In this document: positions 1-14,664 of the stretch, in pieces
Layout: each line of letters starts with the position of its first letter
How positions within the stretch are numbered: the first letter of the stretch is position 1
DNA from: Desulfotalea psychrophila LSv54
GTDB taxonomy: Bacteria > Desulfobacterota > Desulfobulbia > Desulfobulbales > Desulfocapsaceae
NCBI RefSeq assembly: GCF_000025945.1
Contig: NC_006140.1
Coordinates: forward strand, 1 to 14,664
Reading direction: 5' to 3'
DNA length: 14,664 bases
Program-made: the position numbers and the translations under genes
Notes under the pieces: generated by a model
The model's database searches: none
Told to the model about the DNA's origin: nothing
The model's input: the letters and a program-made list of their open reading frames with translations, nothing else

Positions 1-47
1 TTTAATATATCCATTCACATTCCTATAAGCTAACAAGTTATTATCCG

Positions 48-295: not shown

Positions 296-1435
296 TTACT
301 TTTTAATGAGAAGTTTATTAAATATTTCTTTATGTATACTTTCATTGTTGATGACCCTTGCCATTTCATCAGCAGCCCCAACAGAGAAAAATACTTTTGT
401 TGTTTTTGAGTAATTATCAAGGCTCTCGACCCAAATATAATGTTCAAATTTATTATCCACAGTACCCTCGGGCGGATTATTAACTTTAAACTTTGGGTCG
501 TCAACCCACCCTAAATAACGCATTGCAATTTTTAGATGTTGGTTTCCGAAGTTGTATATCACCTTGTCTTTAACAGCTTTGTTAAGACTTGTCATAGTAA
601 TATGTTCTTTAAAATTACTTAGCTCACCAACAATTTTATATATAGGTTTACCTTCATTGGTAGTTATTTTTCCTATTTCCCCTGCTGATATAGCATTCAA
701 GATAATATTGAAAACGCCATTTTGATTCTTATCTATCTCAACATCACTATTAGATAAAATATTATCTCTACTATTGAAGCCATAAACTCTATTTTGTACT
801 GGATTAAGTATCAACACTTCCCGCGGGTTAATATCCACCATTTCAGGTAAAAGCTTTGACCATATTTCCATAAATTCTTTGCTTCGTTCATTTGCTTTAA
901 TCTGAAGAAATCGATTAAAGTCAGCTGTTGACTGATTAGCGTGCTCATTTTTACTAGATGCACGATAATAAATAGCTCCCTTTTGTAACTTATACTCAGG
1001 GACATCAGCCTGCGGTATCAATATCTGATTATTTTTTTCAATAATCAGATAGTAAAACAACCTTGTACTAATCTTGAACTTTTGAAGATCAATGGACACC
1101 CCGACCTTTGCTATTTTTTCAAATTTTTGAGTGACATCATTAAGATCAATTTGTTCCAATATTTCTAACGTTTCACTTGGCAAGCCTACATCATCATTTT
1201 TACCTGTTGTCTTATCTTCCTTGATTCCTAATAATATCATTCCTCCATCTGCGTTAGAAAATGAAATAATATCTTTAGCAAAATTCAACAAAAAGTTTTC
1301 CAAAGACGATTTCGACTTAGTAAGTTTCAAATCAACCTTATAGTCAATATGCGAGTTTTCTTTCGGAAAATTACCATTATTTTTTAAGTCTGAAATAATA
1401 TCTGTTACGTTAACTTTTAATTCTTGAAGGTTCAT
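296..1435 (-). CDS. AlbA_2 / Schlafen-like putative nucleic-acid-binding domain protein (379 aa)
   Basis: Uninterrupted ORF with ATG start and TAA stop. The N-terminal segment ENSHIDYKVDLK...FAKDIISFSNADGGMILLGIKED matches my recollection of the AlbA_2 (PF04326) signature E..lEfK...aFaNt.GG.l.iGv.d. The C-terminal two thirds has no motif I recognise. Confidence 0.55.
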   Translation of the reverse strand: MNLQELKVNVTDIISDLKNNGNFPKENSHIDYKVDLKLTKSKSSLENFLLNFAKDIISFSNADGGMILLGIKEDKTTGKNDDVGLPSETLEILEQIDLNDVTQKFEKIAKVGVSIDLQKFKISTRLFYYLIIEKNNQILIPQADVPEYKLQKGAIYYRASSKNEHANQSTADFNRFLQIKANERSKEFMEIWSKLLPEMVDINPREVLILNPVQNRVYGFNSRDNILSNSDVEIDKNQNGVFNIILNAISAGEIGKITTNEGKPIYKIVGELSNFKEHITMTSLNKAVKDKVIYNFGNQHLKIAMRYLGWVDDPKFKVNNPPEGTVDNKFEHYIWVESLDNYSKTTKVFFSVGAADEMARVINNESIHKEIFNKLLIKK

Positions 1436-1544
1436 TTTCCCTACACTTTTATTAGACCAAAATTAATACATCAATTTAAATATTATGAAAAGTACCGCAC
1501 GAATAATATCAAACAAAGTGGTAAATTACTGTAATTGTTATGAC

Positions 1545-1635
1545 ATTACCACAATTTTATACTAACTCCAAGCAATAAGTATACCCACTTATTCGTAACA
1601 ACTTCACATAATATCTGATATGTTAAAGTTTAACT
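1545..1635. repeat. Copy 2 of the ~90-bp imperfect direct repeat (copy 1 at 48..135)
   Basis: See copy 1. It lies 110-200 nt upstream of the start of the minus-strand CDS at 1435. On the minus strand it contains a TATAAA -10-like hexamer at the position where copy 1 has CATAAT. Confidence 0.7.
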
Positions 1636-1829
1636 AAAGCCCATTTTTAAGCCCTAGAAATGTCTTGAAAACAGGCATATATTGGCAGGACACGCAAAAA
1701 CTCATAGTTAGACCTTCCTTTTCATTTTTATTTGATTCAATTTTGGTTGATCCTAGTGATTGAAATAGGAAACTCACAGAGAACGCATTGTTGTTGTGTC
1801 TTAAAGGTCGATTCTAAAGGAAAAAACCA

Positions 1830-2285
1830 ATGATAAATAGACTAATTAAAAAAACGTTAATCACAGGAATTTTGTTGGTAGCTGTCACCGCTGTTACAAT
1901 TTATTTTGTTTACGATCCAGGAATTTTTAAAAAATGGCCGTGGTTTAGATATTCTCTTAGCTTATCTGTTCTTACGATTCTAAGCGCCTTCACATATATG
2001 GCGTGGTGCATGTTAGATGTCATAAGGTGGGATAATCTATTCCACAGGGGCAGTCTTGGTAGTGATTTTTCTGCTGTTGGTTATGGGGGGGTGATAGCAC
2101 CAATACTGGTACTTCTTCTTTACCCTAGCCTTAGTTCACTTGGAGTCCATAGCGATGGAAGTGTTCGTACCGTAGGTTTTGTCATGGCATTTACACATGG
2201 CATTGGTTTTGGATATATACAAACACAAATAAACAATACTATAACTGAAATCTACAAAGCTAGATCCGAAGAGGAAACGTTGTGA
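1830..2285 (+). CDS. Small integral membrane protein of unknown function, about 4 predicted TM helices (151 aa)
   Basis: ATG preceded by AAAGGA. Four hydrophobic stretches are present (LITGILLVAVTAVTIYFVY, LSLSVLTILSAFTYMAWCML, VIAPILVLLLYPSLSSL, VGFVMAFTHGIGFGYI). It is visibly more G+C-rich than the plasmid core. It ends on TGA (2283..2285); if TGA is sense the ORF runs to TAG at 2292..2294. Confidence 0.55.
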   Translation: MINRLIKKTLITGILLVAVTAVTIYFVYDPGIFKKWPWFRYSLSLSVLTILSAFTYMAWCMLDVIRWDNLFHRGSLGSDFSAVGYGGVIAPILVLLLYPSLSSLGVHSDGSVRTVGFVMAFTHGIGFGYIQTQINNTITEIYKARSEEETL

Positions 2286-3044
2286 CTAATGTAGTGCCAA
2301 ATAAGCTGTCACAAAGGCCAATATAACCGTAAGCAACTGGAATCCCATGGATATTCGGCTCTTAGTCTTTTGTGAATTAAATTCGTCAATAGTATTTATT
2401 GCCTTACCACTTACTTTAATTGTTGTTTCATATTTTTGTATGTCTTTACAGTCTTTCAGTGATTCTAAATAAAAATCCATTTTTTTCTTTTGCAATTTGC
2501 TACCTGTACTACCTAAACGATGTGAACGGTAAAACTTTTGTAGTATGTAATCGCATTCTATTTTTTGTTTACCATTATTAACCTGTTGCCTAACTAAAAA
2601 TTGAAGAAGCTGATTTCTTTCGCTCGCCGATGCTTCTTTATTTAAATGCAGATATGCGAACTTTGTGCATAAAATCCCATATATTTTATTAAACCAATAA
2701 GGATATCTTGTGAAATACAGGAGGTAGATTTTAAATAGACTTTTTGTTTCTTTTGGTTTGAAAAAAAAATTTGGTTCAAAATAATAAGTTGTATACAAAT
2801 AGTATTGTGAAAGATTCTCAACAGTGATGTTGAAATCATCTGTCCAGCTAGTTCCGTCGAAACTTCGACATGAAAAATTATTTGCATCAAATTTGTCGAC
2901 AACATAAGATCCACCGCCCTTCTTGTGGTTTAGGATTGTGCTAAAGCGACTATAGGGACTTGTTCTACGTATACCTGATGTACAGTGGGCTTTTTTAACT
3001 AAACGTACTGCTATTGCTTTATGCATTGTTTGATAAATTTTCAA
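2286..3044 (-). CDS. Hypothetical protein with a C-terminal hydrophobic anchor (252 aa from a TTG start; an ATG at 3024..3026 is an alternative start)
   Basis: Long ORF with TAG stop at 2286..2288, directly abutting the TGA of the convergent gene. The C-terminus ISMGFQLLTVILAFVTAYLALH is TM-like. I recognise no family motif. Confidence 0.45.
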   Translation of the reverse strand: MKIYQTMHKAIAVRLVKKAHCTSGIRRTSPYSRFSTILNHKKGGGSYVVDKFDANNFSCRSFDGTSWTDDFNITVENLSQYYLYTTYYFEPNFFFKPKETKSLFKIYLLYFTRYPYWFNKIYGILCTKFAYLHLNKEASASERNQLLQFLVRQQVNNGKQKIECDYILQKFYRSHRLGSTGSKLQKKKMDFYLESLKDCKDIQKYETTIKVSGKAINTIDEFNSQKTKSRISMGFQLLTVILAFVTAYLALH

Positions 3045-3160
3045 AATCAGCTCTATCCCTCGTTTATCGATTGCAGTTTTGCTAACTCTTCGATTCTCTC
3101 ATTACCCGTACAAAAAAGATTTAACTTCGTCGCCTAACACTTTTCGAGCTTTGGACTAAA

Positions 3161-3691
3161 CTACTTTGGTTCATTAAGTTTTTTGACGTCTTTTTTATCG
3201 TTGATGAAAATAGCATTCCTTTTCAATTCAGGAAATATTTGAGGAATCATTTTTAATATTCTTTCCTGATCCTGGGCTTTCCTTGATATCTCCTCACACA
3301 CTTTTTGTTCAAGTAACTGTTTGTCTATTATCATAGATATTGCTGAATGGCTCTCACCCATATGTTGCACCATTTCCATATCTTTTAATAATTTATTGGC
3401 TCGATTTTTTAGTACGTTAGTGTAAGTGTCTATTTTACCTTTATATATGGATTCTGTGAATAATTTATCATCAAAAATAAGCCTTCCGTTTTCATCTTTC
3501 CTGAACCCTGATGCTTTGTGATTTCGTTTAGTTGCTAAATCGTTAAGGTGCAATGTTATTTCTTTTTTGATATTTTCTGAAGTCGTTGATAAGTTATAAA
3601 TATCTAACATCAACTTAATTGGGAAAGGTAACTCTTCTGCCGTAAATATCTCACCAGTACCTTTTTGTTCTACTATTTCGTTTTTACTCAC
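3161..3691 (-). CDS. Hypothetical protein (176 aa), co-oriented with and immediately downstream of rep
   Basis: GTG start with AGGA about 7 nt upstream, TAG stop. It lies 31 nt downstream of the rep stop, so an operon with rep is likely. No motif recognised. Confidence 0.5.
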   Translation of the reverse strand: MSKNEIVEQKGTGEIFTAEELPFPIKLMLDIYNLSTTSENIKKEITLHLNDLATKRNHKASGFRKDENGRLIFDDKLFTESIYKGKIDTYTNVLKNRANKLLKDMEMVQHMGESHSAISMIIDKQLLEQKVCEEISRKAQDQERILKMIPQIFPELKRNAIFINDKKDVKKLNEPK

Positions 3692-3722: not shown

Positions 3723-5060
3723 TTAAAATTTTATACCTTTTGTTTTTAAAAGCCATTTTTCAAAAGTATTAACACTTGAATCAAGTATATTTTTCCTATA
3801 ATATAATTTTGCTTGAACCTCAAAAATAACGGTTTTATAATATTCATCTATTGTTTTTAATGATGATATTTTTCTTAAAATAGTCGACTTAATTCCATCA
3901 TGACAATTATCAAGAAACTGTTTTGTAAATTTTTCTATGTTTTTATCTAAATATTTTTCAAATTGCGAATTACAATATAAACTATATTCTTCATCTAATA
4001 TTTTTTCTTTATCTTTTCTTTTTTGGTAAGCTTTTATTTCTTCTATAGATTTTTTGTCTTTTTCATCTTTCTCTTTTTCTCTAGTTTCTTTTTTCTTTTT
4101 ATAAGGGCTTTTTTTTGCCCAGTCACCAGTTATAGCTGATGAAATAAAGGCAGCTATCGTATCAACTTTTCCTTTTTCATCTTCACTTAAAGTATATTCT
4201 ATATTTCTCACTACACGGGATTCATCTAATATACCAGACTTATCCATAGATAATATTTTTTTAGGAGAAATGCCATAACCTATTAAATCTCTATAATGTT
4301 CAGGGCTTACAGAATTAAACTTCATTTTTAAAATAGCTTGTGCATCTTTATCAATAATAATGAGATCTAAAAAATGTGTTTTCCTTCCTAATTTCCTTGT
4401 TTTATAACTAAAATACATTTCTGTTTTAAGTGGTATTTCTACCATTGCTTTTTCAATAACATACTTAATAAAATCAGTAGGTTGCTTATATTTACTAGTT
4501 AAACCCATTAAAACCTTGAGTTCATCTATAACTAATGTTTTCTTTCCTAAGAAAGAATACAGCCGAATAATCTCGTAAAATCTCCATACATTACCACCTA
4601 CCACCTCATTTCTCATCCCTATTGGATAAGCGATATATGACTTTAAACTTGCACTTAATAGATACTTTTTCATGATAGGCGAGAAACGGACATCAACAGT
4701 ACCTTTTCCCTTGTTGTAATCCGCTTGGCAAAGAAAAGATGATTGGCTAACAATAATAGCCCCCTCTTCTGAAGTAGTCGTCAACTGGAAACCCTTAGTA
4801 ATCAAGCCTGCGGTTATTTCTTGAATAGCTTTATATGCCCCGTCTGGTTTTATTTTATAGTATTCAGCAAGTTGAGAAATTGAAAAACGAAGACTATCAA
4901 AATCTTCAGCATTTCCATCTGATACAGCAATCATTAAATCAATAAATTTTCCTTCCCTTTCAGTAAAACAATAATTTTTGCTTAGCATTTTCGTGCTTTT
5001 TCTTACAAGGGTATGCGGATTATATACTTCCGGTAAATGAACCATTTTCAAAAAAACCAT
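3723..5060 (-). CDS. Plasmid replication initiator (RepB / Rep_3-like, iteron-binding type), 445 aa
   Basis: Large ORF reading away from an array of 21-bp iterons that begins about 85 bp upstream of its start. The N-terminal half looks like winged-helix initiators (LSKNYCFTEREGKFIDLM...ISQLAEYY). It has a K/E-rich linker and a TAA stop. The call rests mostly on the iteron context. The true start could be one of the internal Met codons. Confidence 0.65.
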   Translation of the reverse strand: MVFLKMVHLPEVYNPHTLVRKSTKMLSKNYCFTEREGKFIDLMIAVSDGNAEDFDSLRFSISQLAEYYKIKPDGAYKAIQEITAGLITKGFQLTTTSEEGAIIVSQSSFLCQADYNKGKGTVDVRFSPIMKKYLLSASLKSYIAYPIGMRNEVVGGNVWRFYEIIRLYSFLGKKTLVIDELKVLMGLTSKYKQPTDFIKYVIEKAMVEIPLKTEMYFSYKTRKLGRKTHFLDLIIIDKDAQAILKMKFNSVSPEHYRDLIGYGISPKKILSMDKSGILDESRVVRNIEYTLSEDEKGKVDTIAAFISSAITGDWAKKSPYKKKKETREKEKDEKDKKSIEEIKAYQKRKDKEKILDEEYSLYCNSQFEKYLDKNIEKFTKQFLDNCHDGIKSTILRKISSLKTIDEYYKTVIFEVQAKLYYRKNILDSSVNTFEKWLLKTKGIKF

Positions 5061-5145: not shown

Positions 5146-5504
5146 AGCAATAAAAACTCGGAGTTAATTTAGGACAAGCAAAAACTCGGAGTTAAAAACA
5201 TCATAATGAAATAAAAAAGGTACTAATACAGAGACATACTTCCAAAAATAATCTGAAAAAACAAGGACAAGCAAAAACTCGGAGTTAATAAAGTATTATT
5301 AAGCTTAAACTGTCGTATTTAAATAATAAATTAAAAATAATTCTAAACATCAAAAAACAACAAGCAAAAACTCGGAGTTAACAAGCAAAAACTCGGAGTT
5401 AGTTTTTTATTTTTTGCTCTTTTTTATAAAAAAAAGCGTCATAATAGGCAGTTAGCCCACAAACAAGCAAAACCTCGGAGTTAACAAGCAAAAACTCGGA
5501 GTTA
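5146..5504. repeat. oriV-type iteron array: seven 21-bp direct repeats ACAAGCAAAAACTCGGAGTTA
   Basis: Copies at 5146..5166 (degenerate 5' third), 5174..5194, 5267..5287, 5360..5380, 5381..5401, 5463..5483 (one mismatch) and 5484..5504. All have the same orientation, and two pairs are exactly tandem. An A/T-rich tract (5402..5440, GTTTTTTATTTTTTGCTCTTTTTTATAAAAAAAAG) lies between the tandem pairs and is a plausible unwinding element. Confidence 0.85.
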
Positions 5505-5682
5505 GTACTCCTAAGTCCTCTAATTTAAAGTATTTTTGAAGTCCCTATATATGTTATGGTTTTATATAAGTAACCAACAACAAGAAAAACAAAAAATTAA
5601 CAACTTTTCAAAAAAAAAGAACAACACCAAATTTCTGAAAAAACAAACTCTTTCAAAAACGCAACTGGAAAAGATGGTGAAT

Positions 5683-5845
5683 AGACCTAAAAAAGCTCAA
5701 GAACAAACCATAGCTAAACGATCACAAAAAAAACATACATAAGTACAAGTCCCCTATATTTTGCTCTGTAGGAGGGTTTTTTGAGCTTTTTAAGGATTTG
5801 CAAGAAAGTCTTTTTTGAAAAACCAGAAAAAGCGCTGACAAAAAG
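5683..5845. repeat. Copy 1 of an ~165-bp imperfect direct repeat (copy 2 at 6665..6830)
   Basis: Hand alignment. Both copies begin AGACCTAAAA and end G(C/A)CGACAAAAA(G/A). The 38-nt cores 5763..5800 and 6744..6781 (GCTCTGTAGGAGGGTTTTTTGAGCTTTTTAAGGATTTG) match at 35 of 38 positions. The copy lies 3' of the minus-strand gene ending at 5975. Confidence 0.7.
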
Positions 5846-5974: not shown

Positions 5975-6346
5975 TTATTTTTTACTAGTTTCTCCCTCAG
6001 TAAGTGTAATACACACAAAATCATTTTCTTGATGTAAAGGAAATTTAGTACTTGAACTAATAACTATATTTTTATGTTCCAAAAATCTTTTTATTGAAGC
6101 ACTAGCACCATTTTCTTTAATATTAATTTTATATGCACCTGCTTTTTTTTCTGCAACAAAATTAAACCCTATTGAGGTTTTATCTTCTGAAATACCGTAT
6201 ATAATATATATTGACTCATTTATATTATATTCTTCTAATGCTTTTTTATTAAAATTTATACCTCCATTTTTAGAAATTGTAACAGTTGGGTTTGCATTAC
6301 GTTTAGCACCTCTTTTAATTTGTTCTTCAAACCATTCAAATTCCAT
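5975..6346 (-). CDS. Hypothetical small protein (123 aa)
   Basis: ATG start, TAA stop, non-repetitive sequence (PTVTISKNGGINFNKKALEEY...). It is bracketed by the two copies of the ~165-bp repeat. No confident family call. Confidence 0.5.
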   Translation of the reverse strand: MEFEWFEEQIKRGAKRNANPTVTISKNGGINFNKKALEEYNINESIYIIYGISEDKTSIGFNFVAEKKAGAYKINIKENGASASIKRFLEHKNIVISSSTKFPLHQENDFVCITLTEGETSKK

Positions 6347-6664: not shown

Positions 6665-6830
6665 AGACCTAAAAGGTTCATAACCAACCTTTTAGCTAAG
6701 CGGTTATAAAAAAAGATACATGGTTACCCGTTTTATATGTTTCGCTCTGTAGGAAGGATTTTTGAGCTTTTTAAGAATTTGTGAGGGATTCTTTTTTCTG
6801 AAGTTCTTGAAAAACAGCCGACAAAAAAGG
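6665..6830. repeat. Copy 2 of the ~165-bp imperfect direct repeat (copy 1 at 5683..5845)
   Basis: See copy 1. This copy contains a perfect 10-bp hairpin CTAAAAGGTT-CATAACC-AACCTTTTAG (6669..6695). Its high-coordinate end lies 14 nt beyond the stop (6844..6846) of the minus-strand primase-like gene, so the repeat lies 3' of that gene. Confidence 0.7.
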
Positions 6831-6843
6831 GAATAAATAATTT

Positions 6844-7737
6844 TTATTTCCTTTTTTGTAAAAAATCATTGTAATCATTGAATTTAGCATAGATATAGCT
6901 TTTATCATCAACAACTAAATTTTTTAAGTTGTCCTTAAAAAATTTAGTTGTTTTTTTTCCTGTTTTATCATTATCAAGCAAAGTATAAATGCTTTTTATA
7001 TTAGTTTCTAGGCATATACAAAAAATTTTTTCAATAGTCTTTTTAGCCATAGATACAGAACACATAATAATAACAGAGTTAACATATTCTAATACACTTT
7101 CTTTTTTATCAGTTAAAAAACTTAAAAAATCGATAAATCACTCAAAGATCAATATATTTTTACTTTTTTTATTAAAAGTAAATGTTGCTATATCTTTACA
7201 AATTAAATTTGATTTAAAATTTAAATTTCTTATTTCGTATCATTTTTTATCGTTTTCAAAAGCAATTGCTTTAAATTTTCAATATTGGTTTGTATAAGTA
7301 ATTTCTTTGCAGAATTTTTTAACAATAGAAATATTAAGTTTCCTTGATTCTAAATAGTCAATTATTGATTTTGTTTTTATCGGTCATATAGCTTCTATGC
7401 TATAATTTTTTTTTACTTTTGATTCTACTTTTTTTGTTGTTGGAACAGGGGGTAAAATAGTTTGTTGACCTCAGATATTTTCTAAAAAGTTTAAGGCTTG
7501 CGATACAGAGCATTTTTGAAATCCGATAATAAAATCTAGTGTGTTTCCTCCTTCCCCAGTACCGTGGTCAAACCATGCATTTTTTAAAGGGCTATAATCA
7601 AAAGAAGGAGTCTTTTCTTCTCTAAAAGGACTAAAATATTTTATTGAATTTTGACTATTTAAATATTTTTGTGGTGCATAACCTAATTTATTTAAAACTA
7701 AATCAAGTTTTATGTTTTTTGCTTGTTCACATTTCAT
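6844..7737 (-). CDS. Toprim / degenerate CHC2-finger primase-like protein typical of mobilizable elements. It is 297 codons only if five in-frame TGA codons are read as sense (best fit Gly, table 25)
   Basis: I walked the frame codon by codon. The standard-code fragments 7471..7737 and 6844..7065 are in the same frame. The 405 nt between them contains TGA at 7471..7473, 7384..7386, 7279..7281, 7240..7242 and 7138..7140 (plus-strand coordinates) but no TAA or TAG. The N-terminus SPFREEKTPSF...WFDHGTGEGGNTLDF and the C-terminus LLDNDKTGKK...YNDFL match my recollection of Bacteroides-type Toprim proteins. Three TGA codons fall at the family glycines in NGK.YFAIGF, GGYE.RN and FEGF.D(F/Y)LSFL. 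Confidence 0.8.
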
Positions 7738-8633: not shown

Positions 8634-8945
8634 ATGGACATTTGTAAAATAGTTGAAGAGAAATTAAAGGATTATCCACTATATTCTCAAGATTGAAATA
8701 AAAACCCTTTAGTTTGTGCTAAATTGTTTTGATTAGGTACAGGAGCAACCTGGTATATTACAGAATATTCTCCTAAAGAAAAAATAGCTTTCTGATATAC
8801 TGAATGATTAACGGAAAATGGTGATGAATGGGGATATATTAGTTTGGCAGAACTTGCGAGTATAATGTTTTGACCTATCCCAAGAATAGAGGTTGATTTG
8901 TTTTTCAAAGTAAAAGGTTTTTCAGAAATTGTAAAAAGGGAATAA
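8634..8945 (+). CDS. DUF2958-family protein (103 aa) containing five in-frame TGA codons (best fit Gly, table 25)
   Basis: ATG at 8634 and TAA at 8943. In-frame TGA at 8694, 8730, 8793, 8805 and 8871. With TGA = Gly the product is MDICKIVEEKLKDYPLYSQDGNKNPLVCAKLFGLGTGATWYITEYSPKEKIAFGYTEGLTENGDEWGYISLAELASIMFGPIPRIEVDLFFKVKGFSEIVKRE. This reproduces my recollection of the DUF2958 (PF11171) pattern LYSQ.G, KFF.P...WTWY..E.D, FFG.V.G...E.GY.SL.EL, RGP...IERD..F. The standard-code track reports only an antisense ORF here. Confidence 0.8.
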
Positions 8946-8957: not shown

Positions 8958-9055
8958 CAGTTCATTTTTACGGGCACGGTTAATTTTGGAGCTATGCTGA
9001 AAGAGTGCTATTATAGTAGAAGCAAGATTGAAAGTTTTACGAAAACATTCATCTT

Positions 9056-9080
9056 GTAAGGGGGGATTCCCCCCCCTTAC
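9056..9080 (+). promoter_or_regulatory. Candidate oriT inverted repeat
   Basis: GTAAGGGGGG (9056..9065) pairs with CCCCCCTTAC (9071..9080) across the loop ATTCC, and is followed by CCCCCTTTTAAAAACC. It is the only strongly G/C-rich hairpin in the window and sits about 30 nt upstream of the mobC-relaxase operon, the usual oriT position. The nick site was not identified. Confidence 0.45.
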
Positions 9081-9112: not shown

Positions 9113-9481
9113 ATGTCTAGAAAAAAATATTTACAAGAATATCAAAAAGAGTATCGAAAAGAAAAAAAACAAGTAACTTTAACACTTACTTTAACAGAGT
9201 ATAATTATTTTAAAACAATAGCAGATAAAGAAGATATAAAAGTTACAAGTTTAATTAAAGCTATGGCTTTATCTCAACTTGGTAAAACTTTTTATTTCCC
9301 TAAGGAAATCCTAAAAAGGATAGATGAATTTATTTTTATAATTAGAAATATTGCTAATAATCTAAATCAAATAGCAAGGCATTCAAATATTATAAAAAAT
9401 GTTATTAACGAAAACAGTGTACTCTCATTAATAAAAAATCTTGAGACAGAAGTTAAAAGATTCATAAAAAGTAAAATATGA
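9113..9481 (+). CDS. mobC: MobC-family relaxosome accessory protein (ribbon-helix-helix type), 122 aa
   Basis: The motifs KKQVTLTLTLTEYNYFKTIADKEDIKVTSLIKAMAL and IRNIANNLNQIARHSN match my recollection of the PF05713 signature NLNQ(I/L)AR..N. Its stop overlaps the relaxase start in ATGA (9478..9481). If TGA is sense the ORF ends at TAA 9485..9487. Confidence 0.8.
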   Translation: MSRKKYLQEYQKEYRKEKKQVTLTLTLTEYNYFKTIADKEDIKVTSLIKAMALSQLGKTFYFPKEILKRIDEFIFIIRNIANNLNQIARHSNIIKNVINENSVLSLIKNLETEVKRFIKSKI

Positions 9482-10398
9482 TTATAAAATCCTTATCAAG
9501 AAAAAAACCGACTTTTGGGCAGTTGTCTGATTATATTTATAATGAGGCAGATAAAGAATATATTTATACATATAATATGTACTCTGATAAAAATAAATTA
9601 AAAGATATAAAAAAAGAATTTAAAGAAAATTATAGTTTTTTAAAAAAACAAAAAAATTCTAATGCCTTGTACCATGAGATGTTATCTATAAAAAAATCTA
9701 ATATAGAGATTGATTTACAAAAAAAAGCCTTATATGACATTGTTAACGAGTATATAAAAGTAAGGTCGCCAAATTGTTTAGTCTATGGTGGTCTGCATGA
9801 GGCAGAAAATAACCTACATTATCATGTGATTATTAGTTCAAATCAAATTGAAAAAGAAAAGAATAATTATTTATCAAAAAAAGAATTTTCTGAAATTAAA
9901 AAAGGGTTAGAAATGTATGTTCTAAACAAATACCCAGAGTTAAAACAAGAAATAATTATAAATAAAGAGAAAAAGAAAAACACTATATCGGACAAAGAAT
10001 ATCAATTAGGAAAAAGAACAGGTAGGCAAACTAAAAGCGAAAATTTAAAAGAAAGATTAAATAATATTTTCAATAATGCTAAAACAAAAAAAGAATTTTT
10101 TGACGCTCTCTATTGGGAGAAAATAGAAATTCAACTAAAAGGTAAAACAATAAAATTTATTGATGAAAAAACGGGGCTGACTCGTCGTCTAAAAAGACTA
10201 GGGCTAGAAGAAGAATTTTATAAATTAAGTGATAGTTTAGAACAGCAAGAAGCAAAGTACCAGGAGGGGAAGCAAACCCACGAGCAACAGCAAGCTCACG
10301 AGCAACAGCAAGCTCACGAGCAACAAGAACAAACTAAAAATACTGAGTCAGCTGAAGAACTGAAGAAAAACAAAGAAATAAAAGAAAAGAATTTCTAA
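9478..10398 (+). CDS. Relaxase / mobilization nuclease (MobA/VirD2-type, PF03432-like), 306 aa
   Basis: N-terminus MIIKSLSRKKPTFGQLSDYIYNE, with candidate catalytic Tyr residues. A histidine motif NNLHYHVIISSN is present. The start is translationally coupled to mobC and the stop is TAA. The C-terminal tail is Q/E-rich and carries an 18-bp tandem repeat. Confidence 0.8.
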   Translation: MIIKSLSRKKPTFGQLSDYIYNEADKEYIYTYNMYSDKNKLKDIKKEFKENYSFLKKQKNSNALYHEMLSIKKSNIEIDLQKKALYDIVNEYIKVRSPNCLVYGGLHEAENNLHYHVIISSNQIEKEKNNYLSKKEFSEIKKGLEMYVLNKYPELKQEIIINKEKKKNTISDKEYQLGKRTGRQTKSENLKERLNNIFNNAKTKKEFFDALYWEKIEIQLKGKTIKFIDEKTGLTRRLKRLGLEEEFYKLSDSLEQQEAKYQEGKQTHEQQQAHEQQQAHEQQEQTKNTESAEELKKNKEIKEKNF

Positions 10399-10682: not shown

Positions 10683-10988
10683 ATGATAGATTTTTTAGGG
10701 CTTTTTGATGGATTTATGAGTTTTTTTTCTCTCACGAAAGATAGTTCAACCAAAATAGATAATGGCAATAATAGATGTGGAAATTGTAAAAAAAACAATT
10801 ATAAAAAACCCACTTATGAAGCTAAGACAATTGATAAAAAACAAAAAAATGATCTTCTTGAAAAACAAAAAAATGCACGTATCAAAAGAGAGATGGATAT
10901 AGTTAAAAGAAAAGCGGATTTTTACTCTACAAAACAGCCTAATATGACTATAAAAGATAATGTAGTTACATATGATTTTAAAAACTGA
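10683..10988 (+). CDS. Small hypothetical protein (101 aa); paralogue of 10459..10671
   Basis: AAGGGG (10672..10677) sits 5 nt before the ATG. It shares the N-terminal motif FL.(L/F).D.FMS with the preceding ORF and contains a CGNC pair. It ends on TGA (10986..10988), with TAA two codons later (10992..10994). Confidence 0.45.
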   Translation: MIDFLGLFDGFMSFFSLTKDSSTKIDNGNNRCGNCKKNNYKKPTYEAKTIDKKQKNDLLEKQKNARIKREMDIVKRKADFYSTKQPNMTIKDNVVTYDFKN

Positions 10989-10999
10989 GTTTAACAATT

Positions 11000-12466
11000 A
11001 TGTCAAAATTAATAGCGGATACACTAAAAACATTTTTTAATGTTGGGAAATTTATAGCTAAAGGCTATGTATTAAAAAAAGAAGAGGGCGCAAGGTTTGC
11101 AAAAAATAGTGAACAAAATGAAATAATAAATAGCTCAAATAGAGGGTTATTAATTAATGGGATTAATAAAAGATTATCAGAAAAAGAGTCATTTAAGCAT
11201 ATTGCAATTATTGCAAAATCGGGAATAGGTAAAACAACAGGATATATTTATCCTAATATTTTTGATAAAGCAGATTCTAATTGCTCAATGCTTATAACTG
11301 ACCCAAGTAGTGAAATTTATGAAACTACATCACAACATTTAAAAAATAGAGGTTTTAAAATTGTTAGGTTAAACCCTAGTAATATTAATCAGTCGTCAAG
11401 ATTTAATCCATTTCATGGATTAGGTGCGGAAGATATTATTGAAATTGAACAAATTTGTACATCAATAATTAAGTCTAAATATGGAAATGATAAAGAGCAA
11501 GTGTGGAATGATGGGGCGATTTCTTTGCTTGAACTGTTTGCTAAATGTTTAGCTTATACACAACCTGAATACTTAAATCTGCCTAATCTTAATTATTTAA
11601 TTCAAATGTTCGGAGAAAGTGGGGAAAATTTAGATGATTGGGTTATTGAACACTCTATAAACCCCTATGACGAACAGGACAGGTCTATTCTTGATTTTTG
11701 GATAGGTCTTAGGTCTAATAATGCTAATATGTTAACTAGTTACGCAACTATCGTTAAAACAGCGTTAAAACAGTTAAATAATCGGAAGATTCAAAGACTA
11801 TTATCAAATAATGATATTGATTTAGAAGATTTTAGAAAACAAAAAACAGCAATTTTTTTAAGTTTTCCAGATAATCAGCAAGACTATTATCAGTTTTTAG
11901 TTGATATTTTTTATGCTAGGTTTTTTTCTGTTATGATGAGCAAAAAACCCACGCCGAGAGATTTAAACGTGTATTGTTTTTTAGATGAGTTTGGTAATGC
12001 TTACGTGGATAATTTCCCTACAATAGTAACTACTATTAGAAAATACAGAGTTTCTCTGTCTGTTGTACTTCAAGGAATAAGCCAACTTAATAAAAAATAT
12101 GGAGATATGGCGAAAAGCGGAATTTCAAGTTTTATAATTTATGCAGGTGGTGACTATGAAACTTTGAATGAACAAAGCCAGTTAATAGGGAAAAAAAGAA
12201 TAATACAAAGAAATAAATTTGAAGACCATGTGACAAGTTATCAAGATATTGATTTATTGCCTCCTGCAGAATTAAGAACAATGAAAGATAATCAAGCTTT
12301 ATTTTTGTCTAGTAATAAATACCCTTTTATATTTGAATTTCAACCCTTTTATAAAAACAGAAAATTTTTAACTCTTTCTAAAAAAGGGGAGTATATACCA
12401 TTAGAAAAACAAAAAGATATGTGTTGGAATCAATTGTTTTTGAAAAAAAATAATAAAAATAAATGA
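11000..12466 (+). CDS. Type IV coupling protein (TraG/VirD4 family ATPase) without N-terminal TM helices, 488 aa
   Basis: Walker A AKSGIGKTT (GIGKTT at 11222..11239). Walker B-like YCFLDEFGN. RFNPF and VLQGISQL motifs are typical of T4CPs. It has 24 Gly (hand count) and no internal TGA. It ends on TGA (12464..12466); the next in-frame stop is TAA at 12500..12502. Confidence 0.85.
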   Translation: MSKLIADTLKTFFNVGKFIAKGYVLKKEEGARFAKNSEQNEIINSSNRGLLINGINKRLSEKESFKHIAIIAKSGIGKTTGYIYPNIFDKADSNCSMLITDPSSEIYETTSQHLKNRGFKIVRLNPSNINQSSRFNPFHGLGAEDIIEIEQICTSIIKSKYGNDKEQVWNDGAISLLELFAKCLAYTQPEYLNLPNLNYLIQMFGESGENLDDWVIEHSINPYDEQDRSILDFWIGLRSNNANMLTSYATIVKTALKQLNNRKIQRLLSNNDIDLEDFRKQKTAIFLSFPDNQQDYYQFLVDIFYARFFSVMMSKKPTPRDLNVYCFLDEFGNAYVDNFPTIVTTIRKYRVSLSVVLQGISQLNKKYGDMAKSGISSFIIYAGGDYETLNEQSQLIGKKRIIQRNKFEDHVTSYQDIDLLPPAELRTMKDNQALFLSSNKYPFIFEFQPFYKNRKFLTLSKKGEYIPLEKQKDMCWNQLFLKKNNKNK

Positions 12467-13127: not shown

Positions 13128-13207
13128 GTCTGTGACTTAAAAAACTTTTAAGTCAAAAAGCTATTAAGTCAAAAAATTTTTGACTTTTTAACTCAATGCC
13201 CTATAAT
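13125..13207 (+). promoter_or_regulatory. par operon promoter with overlapping palindromic operator / centromere-like sites
   Basis: TTGACT (13180..13185), 16 nt, then TATAAT (13202..13207). The palindromes are TAAGTC-TGT-GACTTA (13125..13139) and AAGTCAAAAA-A-TTTTTGACTT (13166..13186, overlapping the -35). An extra TTAAGTCA half-site lies at 13148..13155. Confidence 0.6.
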
Positions 13208-13240
13208 ATATTTTATAATTTAACATATAAAAGGTTTATT

Positions 13241-13837
13241 ATGAGAACTTTATTTTGGACGTTTAAAGGTGGTCAAGGCAAGACAACCCTTGCTGTTTCC
13301 TATGCTCTTTATTCAGACAGTTATTTTATAACTAACGATACAGAGAGTGGAACTTTAGATATTTACGGGGGCTTGTTTAGTAGTGATAAAATGGAGAGCT
13401 TAGGAAGAGGGGAAGACCTGGTTTTAAGAGAGAGAAATGAAGTTTATGACTTGGGGGGGTGGTCTGATAGTTTGGCTGAAAAAGTAGCTAGTAACTGTGA
13501 GATTTGTGTTATCCCTGTTTCTTTTAATAGTATTAGTGAAATAACACCCTCCATTAAGGCTATAAATTCATTGTCTATCTATAACAAAAGTATTGTTTTA
13601 GTGATAAATAATACAGACAAAAAAGAAGCTGTAGAAGCTAAAAAATACTTTGAAAAAGAATACCCTAAAATAAAAGTATTTATAGTAAATAAATCTAAAT
13701 ATATACATAGACTAGCAAATGAAAATAAAACGGTTTTTGAAATAGCAGAACAAAACGGGCTTACTAGATATAATACTAAGCAACTAAGAAACCAACTTAC
13801 AACCTTATTTGATTATATAAAAAACTATGACAACTAA
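13241..13837 (+). CDS. parA: ParA/Soj-family partition ATPase (198 aa from the ATG at 13241)
   Basis: The deviant Walker A FKGGQGKTT lies right at the N-terminus when translation starts at 13241. AAGG sits 6 nt upstream. The ORF-track start at 13196 lies upstream of the predicted -10 box and would add an atypical 15-aa leader. The stop is TAA. Confidence 0.8.
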   Translation: MRTLFWTFKGGQGKTTLAVSYALYSDSYFITNDTESGTLDIYGGLFSSDKMESLGRGEDLVLRERNEVYDLGGWSDSLAEKVASNCEICVIPVSFNSISEITPSIKAINSLSIYNKSIVLVINNTDKKEAVEAKKYFEKEYPKIKVFIVNKSKYIHRLANENKTVFEIAEQNGLTRYNTKQLRNQLTTLFDYIKNYDN

Positions 13838-14087: not shown

Positions 14088-14664
14088 TCAAGTTAACCGG
14101 CTGATTTCGTCACTCACCGCTTTTATGTATTTATTGCTTGAGGTCACAAAATCTTCTAGTCCTTTTTTTAGAATCAAAGAGTTAGCCGGTGTGTTTTCAG
14201 AATTTCTATATAAAGTTTCAAATTTGAAATTTTCTTCCAGTAGAAATTTAACCTTTTCAGAGAAATCTTTATCTGAAATATGTTTTGCATAAATTGAAGA
14301 TAAAGATTTTATTTTACTTTGAATTATAAAAAATTCCTGCCCTAAATTTTGCGAAGCTATATATTTGTCAATTTGCTCGCCAGATATTTTTTCTTCAATC
14401 ATGGTGTATATATTAGAATATTTCACGTATATTCTTAAATTCATTTCTATTAGTTGACAGTGCAATTCTTCAAGTTTAAGTATTTTTCGTTCTTTATTGC
14501 TAGCGATTTCGGCTAATTTGTTTTTGTGATCTTCGAGATCTTGTGATAACGATAATTTATGATTTTCAATATCTTTGACAAGAAACTGACCGAGAACTTT
14601 CTTGGCTAAAAAAACTGCTATTGTAATTAATGTAGCAGATCCACTGACTGATAATAGAACAATG
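14088..14664 (-). CDS. Membrane-anchored coiled-coil protein of unknown function, 5'-truncated by the window edge
   Basis: The frame of ORF 14088..14465 stays open upstream to nt 14663 (IVLLSVSGSATLITIAVFLAKKVLGQF..., a TM helix, then heptad-like charged sequence). The M in the ORF track is a TTG codon inside this longer frame. It ends on TGA (14088..14090), with TAA two codons later (14082..14084). Confidence 0.6.
   Translation of the reverse strand, partial: IVLLSVSGSATLITIAVFLAKKVLGQFLVKDIENHKLSLSQDLEDHKNKLAEIASNKERKILKLEELHCQLIEMNLRIYVKYSNIYTMIEEKISGEQIDKYIASQNLGQEFFIIQSKIKSLSSIYAKHISDKDFSEKVKFLLEENFKFETLYRNSENTPANSLILKKGLEDFVTSSNKYIKAVSDEISRLT

What the first reader, a model, noticed from the sequence alone, without database searches (positions are those of the whole stretch)
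6844..7737. Primase/Toprim-like gene is intact only if five in-frame TGA codons are sense, and they align with conserved glycines
In the standard code this locus looks like two fragments, 88 aa and 73 aa. I walked the frame by hand. Both fragments are in one frame, and the 894-nt span contains five TGA codons (codons 89, 118, 153, 166, 200) but no TAA, TAG or frameshift. That outcome is very unlikely for decaying DNA in a sequence this AT-rich. Written with X for TGA, the joined product contains ...YTNQYXKFKAIAFENDKKXYEIRN...ILIFEXFIDFLSFL.... From memory, the Bacteroides-type Toprim family has NGK.YFAIGF, GGYE.RN and FEGF.D(F/Y)LSFL at those places, so three of the five X positions fall on conserved Gly. 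This fits NCBI table 25 (UGA = Gly in Gracilibacteria and Absconditabacteria/SR1).
Basis: partly seen in the sequence, partly recalled or inferred. Interest (0 to 1): 0.88.

Follow-up and report, generated by a model that had tools for sequence, protein, structure and literature searches.

The report
TGA=glycine genes on a standard-code plasmid
A small plasmid from a cultured sulfate-reducing bacterium that uses the normal genetic code carries two intact genes written in the rare code where TGA means glycine, and related plasmids show the same mix, so this plasmid family has crossed a genetic-code boundary.

Summary
Window 6844-7737(-) is one 297-codon frame with TGA at codons 89, 118, 153, 166 and 200, no TAA/TAG, and a TAA stop. 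Read through, it is a full-length PrmN1-like primase (zinc-less DnaG-type ribbon plus Toprim). Two TGAs fall on near-invariant Gly columns (G in 106/119 and 97/119 homologs; 133/147 and 142/147 in a second set). No column has Trp. A second gene, DUF2958 at 8634-8945(+), also has five TGAs at Gly positions.

The window is not from a code-25 organism. It is the complete 14,664-bp small plasmid of Desulfotalea psychrophila LSv54, a standard-code host. The other 15 genes have no internal TGA (0 vs 133 GGN; Fisher p=6.5e-10), and five end in TGA.

Relatives repeat the mixture, including elements in cultured gammaproteobacteria. The MobC-relaxase-T4CP module is TGA-free. Genes on the other side of a conserved oriT-like hairpin (Toprim, DUF2958, methyltransferase, integrase) carry TGA at textbook Gly motifs.

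Best reading: a mobilizable plasmid lineage that exchanges DNA with TGA=Gly bacteria. The two genes cannot be translated in the present host. I found no prior report for plasmids; dual-code-compatible phages are the nearest precedent.

The parts
6844..7737 (-). PrmN1-like primase gene (zinc-less DnaG-type ribbon plus Toprim), 297 codons plus TAA. In-frame TGA at 7471-7473, 7384-7386, 7279-7281, 7240-7242 and 7138-7140 (codons 89, 118, 153, 166, 200).
   Evidence: Pfam PF01807 and PF13155; column residues; distant DnaG similarity, below the dnaG cutoff; fold of family member P0003 resembles DnaG and T7 gp4 primase.
8634..8945 (+). DUF2958 gene, 103 codons plus TAA, with in-frame TGA at codons 21, 33, 54, 58 and 80 (8694-8696, 8730-8732, 8793-8795, 8805-8807, 8871-8873). 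This is the second TGA=Gly gene on the plasmid.
   Evidence: PF11171, residues 20-93; invariant G at X21 and X54, G in 5/7 at X58; orthologs in L001, L002 and L004 share TGA at AFXY and swap TGA/GGN at EWGY.
9023..9079 (+). Putative oriT: two adjacent hairpins (AGCAAGATTG...CATCTTG, then G5-N5-C5) followed by a C-run, between DUF2958 and mobC.
   Evidence: Conserved upstream of mobC in window, L002, L004, L006, L022 and L023. DNA fold -16.9 kcal/mol, z=-5.2. The oriT function is inferred.
9113..9481 (+). MobC/NikA-like relaxosome accessory gene. No internal TGA. Ends in TGA that overlaps the relaxase ATG (ATGA), with TAA two codons later.
9478..10398 (+). Relaxase with an HxxxxxxHYH histidine motif. 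No internal TGA.
   Evidence: Orthologs in L004, L022 and L023 carry PF03432.
11000..12466 (+). Type IV coupling protein (VirD4/TraG family), 488 aa, with 24 GGN and 0 internal TGA. Terminates at TGA (codon 489), with the next TAA 12 codons later.
   Evidence: (100% = WP_011190473.1).
3723..5060 (-). Rep3-family replication initiator. No TGA.
5152..5527 (+). Iteron array: at least eight copies of the 21-bp repeat ACAAGCAAAAACTCGGAGTTA. Probable oriV.
13196..13837 (+). ParA-like partition ATPase (Walker A motif KGGQGKTT). No TGA.
   Evidence: ortholog in L002.

Best explanation
The locus is an intact gene for a PrmN1-like primase, written in a code where TGA is glycine. It sits, with a second such gene (DUF2958), on a 14.7-kb Rep3 mobilizable plasmid. 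The plasmid's replication, partition and mobilization genes contain no sense TGA and sometimes use TGA as their stop. The plasmid belongs to a widespread marine family whose members mix standard-style genes and TGA=Gly genes on one replicon.

The simplest account is that this lineage has lived in, or recombined with relatives living in, TGA=Gly bacteria. The only such bacteria known are Gracilibacteria and Absconditabacteria, which are episymbionts or predators of other bacteria. The lineage then entered standard-code hosts such as Desulfotalea psychrophila. It can replicate and be mobilized there because its backbone reads the same in both codes.

In D. psychrophila, translation of the primase gene should stop at codon 89 and DUF2958 at codon 21, so both genes are silent cargo there. 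In a TGA=Gly cell every gene on the plasmid is translatable, and TGA-terminated backbone genes gain 2-12 extra residues.

Shown: the TGA=Gly decoding, the host identity, the gene-by-gene split, and its recurrence in relatives. Inferred: residence in a code-25 host, the direction and timing of transfer, and lack of expression in D. psychrophila.
For: (1) Decoding. Gly dominates at columns 166 and 200. DUF2958 X21 and X54 fall on invariant Gly. Orthologs interchange TGA and GGN. L023's intact Toprim has TGA at family columns 59, 64 and 200, where G is 92/119, 118/119 and 97/119. Methyltransferases in L004, L005, L006 and L023 read SFAXSXTTX, the FxGxG AdoMet-binding motif. Integrases in L008 and L014 read LXHS, the LGH motif, with full-length Pfam matches.
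(2) Host. The T4CP is 100% identical to WP_011190473.1 of D. psychrophila on a 14,664-bp contig. Published plasmid size is 14,664 bp at 28% GC against a 46% GC chromosome (PMC2702500).
(3) Split. 10 TGA:13 GGN in two genes versus 0:133 in 15 genes, p=6.5e-10. The lone TGAs in backbone genes are terminal.
(4) Recurrence. L002, L004, L006, L008, L022 and L023, plus the cultured-isolate records L005 (IMCC1989) and L014 (a 4-Mb Pseudoalteromonas contig), show the same mixture.
(5) Fully recoded relatives exist: L003 T4CP has 20 TGA:5 GGN, and P0342 Toprim has W at 6 of 10 conserved-Gly columns.
(6) No tRNA on any element.
(7) GC3 of the recoded genes (0.15-0.18) matches the backbone (0.11-0.24), so the plasmid looks like one compositional unit that is foreign to its host.
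Against: No direct link to a code-25 host was obtained: no CRISPR spacer match and no relative on a Gracilibacteria or Absconditabacteria contig. The bins that hold relatives are named Cellulophaga, Colwellia, Campylobacterota, Methylococcaceae and Gammaproteobacteria, although plasmid binning is unreliable. The host chromosome could not be inspected for prfB or a tRNA-Gly(UCA). If the genes are dead in standard-code hosts, it is surprising that they are intact in every isolate examined. That requires recent or repeated transfer. The closest primase relative is only 42% identical, so timing cannot be estimated. The plasmid's assignment to D. psychrophila rests on the deposited genome record.
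Confidence: 0.75

Rival explanations
1. Code-gated shuttle element. The split is functional rather than historical. Genes that act in the donor or in any host (MobC, relaxase, T4CP, Rep, Par) are kept free of sense TGA. Genes in the leading region, which enter a recipient first and act in establishment (primase, DUF2958, orphan methyltransferase, integrase), are written in TGA=Gly. They are therefore made only when the recipient is a code-25 cell, for example an episymbiont attached to the standard-code donor.
For: In 13 of 14 elements, TGA is concentrated within 4 kb on the side of the oriT-like site opposite the mob operon. Pooled counts are 124 TGA:398 GGN versus 14:648. The relaxase is typically in the lagging region, and the leading region carries establishment and anti-defence genes including orphan methyltransferases (PMC11541004). 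T4CP orthologs that differ by 35-50% in protein sequence all lack sense TGA, while adjacent genes are 40-85% TGA. Phages predicted to infect Gracilibacteria and Absconditabacteria avoid in-frame TGA and stack different stop codons at gene ends (PMC10746230). In the window, 4 of 5 TGA-terminated genes have TAA/TAG within 3 codons (window-only p=0.037).
Against: There is ascertainment bias: relatives were found through T4CP protein similarity, which disfavours TGA-rich T4CPs. The mob-side genes are the same orthologs in every element, so they are not independent samples. The set of TGA-bearing genes is not constant. Toprim is TGA-free in L002, L006 and L022. Rep3 and ParA carry TGA in L006. H-NS on the leading side is TGA-free. 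The backup-stop signal disappears when relatives are pooled (p=0.55). Transfer direction was not determined.
Confidence: 0.2
2. Ordinary pseudogene. The primase gene was inactivated by random nonsense mutations and is decaying.
For: Databases annotate it as two fragments. It cannot be translated in full by its host under the standard code.
Against: All ten in-frame stops in the two genes are TGA (P=6e-7), with no TAA/TAG and no frameshift in DNA of 24% GC. At least four of the ten sit on near-invariant Gly columns. Independent orthologs from other samples carry TGA at the same and other Gly columns.
Confidence: 0.02
3. TGA is read as tryptophan (table 4) or selenocysteine, or is bypassed by programmed readthrough in D. 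psychrophila.
For: D. psychrophila has Sec machinery and a tRNA-Sec that reads UGA (PMC1914089, PMC1794560). Gene callers translated relatives under table 4 (P0120, P0244, P0342).
Against: There is no Trp or Cys in any of the five primase columns across 119 plus 147 homologs. The W residues in P0120, P0244 and P0342 fall at conserved-Gly columns and are TGA in the DNA. Five Sec codons per small non-redox protein, with no Cys homologs, is unlike any known selenoprotein (established knowledge). Five successive readthrough events would leave a negligible yield.
Confidence: 0.03

Closest known systems
Genetic code 25 (UGA=Gly) of Absconditabacteria (SR1) and Gracilibacteria, and their code-25 phages and prophages (Campbell et al. 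2013, cited in PMC13059738; PMC10746230; PMC13059738)
   Same: In-frame TGA at conserved glycine positions, at a high share of Gly codons (38-50% in the two window genes; 75-80% in L002 cargo genes and the L003 T4CP). Low GC.
   Different: Here only 2 of 17 genes on the replicon use TGA as sense, and five use it as the terminal codon. The replicon was sequenced from a cultured standard-code deltaproteobacterium. No suppressor tRNA is encoded, unlike phage RSA-ATP1.
Dual-code-compatible phages predicted to infect Gracilibacteria and Absconditabacteria (Liu et al. 2023, mBio, PMC10746230)
   Same: Mobile elements whose genes lack in-frame TGA and have different stop codons close together at gene ends, so they read the same under tables 11 and 25. 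The plasmid backbone here has that property.
   Different: This is a plasmid, not a phage. It also carries genes that are readable only under code 25. Residence in a standard-code host is documented by an isolate genome rather than predicted from spacers. No spacer link to a code-25 host was tested.
Stop-codon-recoded phages in which one set of genes is standard-compatible and another set needs the alternative code (from my own knowledge of Borges et al. 2022 and Ivanova et al. 2014; late-gene suppressor tRNAs are mentioned in PMC13059738)
   Same: One genome contains two classes of genes with respect to a stop codon, grouped by position and function.
   Different: Those phages bring or induce their own suppressor tRNA and switch code within one host. 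Here there is no tRNA, and the two classes would be read in two different hosts.
PrmN1 of the Bacteroides mobilizable element NBU1, and the Bacteroidota 'toprim domain-containing protein' family
   Same: Same two-domain architecture (PF01807-like ribbon plus PF13155 Toprim_2), about 280-310 aa, encoded next to mob genes on mobilizable elements. The GenBank annotators named PrmN1 as the relative. Homologs include B. ovatus and B. thetaiotaomicron proteins.
   Different: Only 30-42% identity. It lies on a Rep3 plasmid rather than an integrated element, and it is TGA-recoded. The biochemical activity of this subfamily is, to my knowledge, untested. NBU1 excision needs a region that includes two genes, oriT and part of the relaxase gene (PMC5704250). 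That prmN1 is one of those genes is from memory.
DnaG and T7 gp4 primases
   Same: The fold of family member P0003 (pLDDT 92.6) matches Aquifex DnaG ZBD+RPD (2au3, E=2.5e-8) and the T7 gp4 primase fragment (1nui, E about 1e-6). The Toprim Glu and DxD motif are conserved.
   Different: All four zinc ligands are replaced (S36, R39, D57, T60) throughout the family. The NCBIfam dnaG score is 49.6 bits against a cutoff of 283.6. There is no helicase-binding domain.

Membership tests
Genetic code 25 (TGA=Gly) usage | In-frame TGA codons align with conserved Gly in homologs, not with Trp or Cys | tested here: met
   Primase columns 166 and 200 are G in 106/119 and 97/119 homologs and in 133/147 and 142/147. 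DUF2958 X21 and X54 are on invariant G. TGA and GGN swap among orthologs. No W or C.
Genetic code 25 (TGA=Gly) usage | TGA is used as a sense codon across the replicon and is not used as a stop | tested here: not met
   Fifteen of 17 genes have 0 internal TGA (0:133 GGN). Five genes terminate at TGA. The T4CP stop at codon 489 is shared with L004, L006, L007, L009 and L022.
Genetic code 25 (TGA=Gly) usage | Host has a tRNA-Gly with anticodon UCA and lacks release factor 2 | not testable with these tools
   No tRNA on the plasmid or on nine relatives, and no tRNA match in Rfam. The D. psychrophila chromosome was not available. The literature treats it as a standard-code organism with UGA=Sec at specific sites (PMC1914089, PMC1794560).
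PrmN1-like Toprim family (PF01807 plus PF13155) | Both Pfam domains above the gathering score, with full-length collinearity to family members | tested here: met
   PF13155 scores 40.1 bits (cutoff 22.1) and PF01807 scores 34.2 bits (cutoff 24.9). Coverage is 97-100% against 119 homologs.
PrmN1-like Toprim family (PF01807 plus PF13155) | Toprim catalytic Glu and DxD acidic motif | tested here: met
   E199 (E in 98/119 homologs) and D255-N-D257 are present.
Canonical DnaG primase | CHC2 zinc ligands in the N-terminal ribbon | tested here: not met
   Aligned with 2au3 and 1d0q, the C/H/C/C ligands are S36/R39/D57/T60. The family has S at position 36 in 117/119, R at 39 in 103/119 and D at 57 in 118/119.
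Canonical DnaG primase | Score above the NCBIfam dnaG equivalog cutoff | tested here: not met
   TIGR01391 scores 49.6 bits against a cutoff of 283.6.
Canonical DnaG primase | DnaG/T7 gp4-type fold (ribbon domain plus Toprim-containing polymerase domain) | tested here: met
   Tested on family member P0003, not on the window protein itself. Foldseek gives 2au3 at E=2.5e-8 and 1nui at E=1.3e-6, probability 1.0.
Dual-code-compatible mobile element (sensu Liu et al. 2023) | Absence of in-frame TGA in its genes | tested here: inconclusive
   True for 15 of 17 genes, including all replication, partition and mobilization genes. False for the primase and DUF2958 genes.
Dual-code-compatible mobile element (sensu Liu et al. 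2023) | Different stop codons close together at gene termini | tested here: inconclusive
   In the window the distances from a terminal TGA to the next TAA/TAG are 3, 2, 2, 12 and 2 codons, against a median of 8.5 for other genes (p=0.037). Pooled with relatives, p=0.55.
Dual-code-compatible mobile element (sensu Liu et al. 2023) | Link to a code-25 host, for example a CRISPR spacer match | not tested
   No spacer database was available.
Mobilizable Rep3 iteron plasmid | Rep3 initiator with adjacent iterons; relaxase, accessory protein and coupling protein with an oriT; no mating-pair-formation genes | tested here: met
   Rep3_N and Rep3_C. At least eight 21-bp iterons. MobC, relaxase and T4CP. 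A conserved hairpin element upstream of mobC. No T4SS structural genes among the 17 ORFs. The oriT function is inferred.

The most novel reading that the evidence does not exclude
These are bilingual shuttle plasmids that move between standard-code bacteria and the TGA=Gly episymbionts or predators that attach to them. The backbone is kept readable in both codes. The leading-region establishment genes (primase, DUF2958, orphan methyltransferase, integrase) are deliberately written in TGA=Gly, so they are expressed only on arrival in a code-25 cell. The genetic code would then act as a host-specific expression switch on a plasmid. D. psychrophila LSv54 would be a cultured reservoir host, and possibly prey, of such an organism.
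Probability: 0.2. Interest if true: 0.92.

Novelty: new variant of a known kind. Interest (0 to 1): 0.78.

Why it matters
A reassigned stop codon is usually seen as a barrier to gene exchange. Here a deposited, complete plasmid from a culture-collection strain (LSv54 = DSM 12343, a standard-code host) carries intact TGA=Gly genes. At least eight related elements, two of them in cultured gammaproteobacteria, show the same mixture.

This is direct sequence evidence that a conjugatively mobilizable plasmid family crosses the boundary between code 25 and the standard code, repeatedly and recently enough that the untranslatable genes have not decayed. It makes several questions testable with a cultured organism:
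- How permeable the code barrier is.
- Whether episymbiotic CPR bacteria exchange plasmids with their hosts.
- Whether the code can gate gene expression by host.

There are also practical consequences. A Rep3/Mob backbone that reads the same in both codes is a natural starting point for shuttle vectors for Absconditabacteria and Gracilibacteria, which currently lack genetic tools. For annotation, genes like these are being deposited as fragments (two 'proteins' in RefSeq), so standard pipelines hide the signal.

Tried and rejected
- PLSDB megablast with the whole window found no match. Protein searches against plasmids found only relatives at 33% identity or less.
- Exact-pattern scans of viral and genome collections found nothing.
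- An exact lookup of the relaxase found no record.
- A metagenome scan for close primase relatives found only 34-36% identity. The exhaustive HMMER library reached 42% at best. The age of the TGAs in this gene therefore cannot be estimated.
- A suppressor tRNA on the element was looked for and not found: ARAGORN on the window and nine relatives, and Rfam at a permissive threshold returned only noise.
- Backup stop codons as a sign of adaptation to TGA readthrough: suggestive in the window alone (p=0.037) but not when pooled with relatives (p=0.55). That pooled list is contaminated by fragments of TGA-rich genes. I do not rely on this signal.
- Foreign-insertion hypothesis for 5.1-9.1 kb: weakened, because Toprim and DUF2958 occupy the same syntenic position in relatives and share the backbone's GC3.
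- Trp, Sec and random-decay readings were rejected (see rival explanations).
- Two older stop-codon-mining papers that mention D. psychrophila do not report these ORFs. Literature searches found no report of mixed-code plasmids.
- PADLOC found no defence family for the accessory genes.
Full report
**1. The observation.**
The reverse strand of 6844-7737 is a single frame of 297 sense positions that ends in TAA. It is interrupted only by TGA at codons 89, 118, 153, 166 and 200. Under table 11 it breaks into an 88-aa and a 73-aa ORF. Public databases annotate it that way: CAG37855.1 'Related to DNA primase PrmN1 (Partial length)', WP_011190468.1 'CHC2 zinc finger domain-containing protein' and WP_083819028.1 'toprim domain-containing protein'.

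TGA is 24% of all stop trinucleotides in the window. Five of five being TGA has P=7.8e-4. With X at the TGAs, the product matches Pfam Zn_ribbon_DnaG (35-89) and Toprim_2 (197-293) above the curated cutoffs. It is collinear over 97-100% of its length with 119 homologs of 276-315 aa, mostly Bacteroidota 'toprim domain-containing' proteins.

**2. Which amino acid.**
- In a MAFFT alignment of the 119 homologs, column 166 is G in 106 and column 200 is G in 97. Column 153 is K/R. Columns 89 and 118 are variable. No column contains W.
- An independent set of 147 representatives from an exhaustive HMMER search gives G in 133/147 and 142/147 at the same two columns.
Codon 153 would reach the G of the nearest relative's 'TGK' only with a one-residue indel.
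- On a high-confidence model of family member P0003 (pLDDT 92.6), the five positions map to the interdomain linker, a strand, two beta-hairpin turns and the strand-helix junction of the Toprim E-G motif.

**3. A second recoded gene.**
8634-8945(+) encodes a DUF2958 protein (Pfam match over residues 20-93) with five TGAs in 103 codons. In its homologs, X21 and X54 are invariant G and X58 is G in 5 of 7. The closest homolog, P0120, shows W at those sites. Its DNA (L001, from a different sequencing run) has TGA there. It had simply been translated under table 4.

**4. Where the window comes from.**
The coupling protein is 100% identical to WP_011190473.1 of Desulfotalea psychrophila, on a contig of exactly 14,664 bp. 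The published small plasmid of strain LSv54 is 14,664 bp at 28% GC, against a 46% GC chromosome (PMC2702500). The window is therefore a complete circular plasmid; one ORF crosses its ends. D. psychrophila is treated in the literature as a standard-code organism that uses UGA for selenocysteine at specific sites (PMC1914089, PMC1794560).

**5. The rest of the plasmid is not written in code 25.**
The plasmid carries:
- a Rep3 initiator next to at least eight 21-bp iterons;
- a ParA-like gene, a DnaJ-domain gene and a Schlafen/AlbA_2 gene;
- MobC, a relaxase and a VirD4-type coupling protein;
- no mating-pair genes.

So it is a mobilizable iteron plasmid. Fifteen genes contain 133 GGN codons and no internal TGA, against 10 TGA:13 GGN in the two recoded genes (Fisher p=6.5e-10). 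Five genes end at TGA. The T4CP ends at codon 489, as in L004, L006, L007, L009 and L022, while L002 has TAA at that place. MobC's TGA overlaps the relaxase ATG. No tRNA is present. GC3 of the recoded genes (0.15-0.18) is the same as that of the backbone.

**6. Relatives.**
The closest T4CP relatives (49-66% identity) lie on 5-35 kb low-GC contigs from unrelated samples. They have the same gene order: H-NS, Toprim(-), DUF2958(+), sometimes DUF7222 and an N6/N4 methyltransferase, then MobC, relaxase, T4CP and DnaJ.

Gene-by-gene counts are bimodal everywhere:
- L002: DUF2958 6 TGA:1 GGN; two cargo genes 18:6 and 14:4; but T4CP 0:28, integrase 0:14 and Toprim 0:14.
- L004 and L023: Toprim, DUF2958, DUF7222-like and methyltransferase all TGA-rich (L023: 6, 6, 4 and 11 TGAs), followed by a TGA-free mob module.
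- L006: methyltransferase 13 TGA, Rep3 5, ParA 2, T4CP 0.

The TGAs fall on textbook glycines:
- 'SFAXSXTTX', the FxGxG motif, in the methyltransferases;
- 'LXHS', the LGH motif, and 'XKGxKxR' in tyrosine recombinases;
- 'FEXF' and 'DFXxxxGXN' in Toprim orthologs.

Two of these elements are in records of cultured standard-code bacteria. One is Gamma proteobacterium IMCC1989 (L005, methyltransferase with 7 TGAs). The other is a 4-Mb contig of Pseudoalteromonas sp. ASV78 (L014, integrase with 9 TGAs inside a low-GC island next to 40-44% GC flanks).

Fully recoded relatives also exist. The L003 T4CP has 20 TGA:5 GGN, and P0342 Toprim has W at 6 of 10 conserved-G columns. None of nine relatives examined encodes a tRNA.

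**7. Position of the recoded genes.**
A conserved double hairpin followed by a C-run lies just upstream of mobC in the window (9023-9079) and in five relatives. It folds well (z=-5.2) and looks like an oriT. Within 4 kb on the side away from the mob operon, 14 elements hold 124 TGA:398 GGN. Within 4 kb on the mob side they hold 14:648. Thirteen of the 14 elements show the same direction.

By the usual convention the relaxase lies in the lagging region. The other side is the leading region, which enters the recipient first and carries establishment and anti-defence genes, including orphan methyltransferases (PMC11541004).

Caveats:
- The relatives were found through T4CP similarity, which disfavours TGA-rich T4CPs.
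- The mob genes are orthologs, not independent samples.
- Some flagged ORFs in the higher-GC loci may be spurious.
- Transfer polarity was not determined.

**8. What the protein is.**
The family has the fold of DnaG and T7 gp4 primases (2au3 at E=2.5e-8; 1nui at about 1e-6) and keeps the Toprim Glu and DxD motif. All four zinc ligands are replaced throughout the family, and it scores far below the dnaG equivalog cutoff. It is best called a PrmN1-like primase-like protein. A role in priming or processing transferred DNA is inferred from fold and context and has not been shown.

**9. Interpretation.**
Shown:
- TGA=Gly decoding of two intact genes.
- A standard-code host of record.
- A backbone with no sense TGA.
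- Recurrence of the mixture across a plasmid family.

Best explanation (confidence 0.75): the lineage exchanges DNA with, or alternates with residence in, TGA=Gly bacteria. The only ones known are Gracilibacteria and Absconditabacteria, which attach to and feed on other bacteria, including Gammaproteobacteria (PMC11452946, PMC13059738). In D. psychrophila the two genes are untranslatable cargo, while the backbone works in either code.

The more novel reading (about 0.2) is that the split is functional. Leading-region establishment genes would be code-gated so that they are expressed only in code-25 recipients.

Random decay, Trp, Sec and readthrough are rejected or very unlikely.

**10. Comparison with what is known.**
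- Code 25 itself and code-25 phages are known.
- Phages that avoid in-frame TGA and stack stop codons, so that they read the same in both codes, were described by Liu et al. 2023 (PMC10746230). The backbone here behaves the same way.
- What I did not find in the searchable literature is a plasmid with this property, a replicon mixing both gene classes, or a cultured standard-code host carrying intact code-25 genes.

I therefore rate it a new variant of a known kind, with interest 0.78.

Noticed in passing
window 8634-8945 (+): A second gene (DUF2958) with five in-frame TGAs at Gly positions. It is not annotated as a gene under table 11.
   Followed up: yes
window 5152-5527: At least eight copies of a 21-bp iteron (ACAAGCAAAAACTCGGAGTTA) directly upstream of the Rep3 gene. 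Probably the replication origin.
   Followed up: partly
window 5727-5816 and 6708-6797: A 90-nt direct repeat (78% identity) brackets the small gene at 5975-6346(-). One copy lies just downstream of the primase gene's stop. Its function is unknown.
   Followed up: no
window 6910-6952: A perfect 19-bp inverted repeat with a 5-nt loop lies inside the 3' part of the primase coding sequence. The terminator scan flags it on the + strand. Unexplained.
   Followed up: no
window 9023-9079: A conserved double hairpin plus C-run upstream of mobC, shared with L002, L004, L006, L022 and L023. Putative oriT.
   Followed up: partly
window 14088-14664 joined to 1-14 (-): A 196-aa ORF crosses the ends of the window, consistent with a circular replicon. 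It ends in TGA, then one codon, then TAA.
   Followed up: partly
window 1830-2285, 9113-9481, 10683-10988, 11000-12466, 14088-14664: Five genes end in TGA. In four of them a TAA or TAG follows within three codons. This resembles the stacked stops reported for dual-code phages, but it is not significant when relatives are pooled.
   Followed up: yes
window 10250-10350 (relaxase C-terminus): A short HEQQQA amino-acid repeat in the relaxase tail.
   Followed up: no
window 296-3691: A higher-GC arm (31-38% GC) holds a Schlafen/AlbA_2 gene, a membrane protein and two unknown genes. None matches PADLOC. It may be a separate cargo module.
   Followed up: partly
L004 2497-3434 (-): The Toprim ortholog in this relative is split by a frameshift between its two domains, as well as carrying TGAs. 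This could be real decay or an assembly error.
   Followed up: no
L014 4512-5441 (Pseudoalteromonas sp. ASV78, 4-Mb contig) and L005 4952-5689 (IMCC1989): An intact tyrosine recombinase (9 TGAs) and an intact N6/N4 methyltransferase (7 TGAs) written in TGA=Gly lie inside genomes of cultured standard-code gammaproteobacteria. How an element whose integrase is untranslatable became integrated is unexplained.
   Followed up: partly
L003 261-1571; protein P0342: Fully recoded relatives of the coupling protein (20 TGA:5 GGN) and of the Toprim protein (W at 6 of 10 conserved-Gly columns). Public gene calls translated them under table 4, which writes Trp where Gly is meant.
   Followed up: partly
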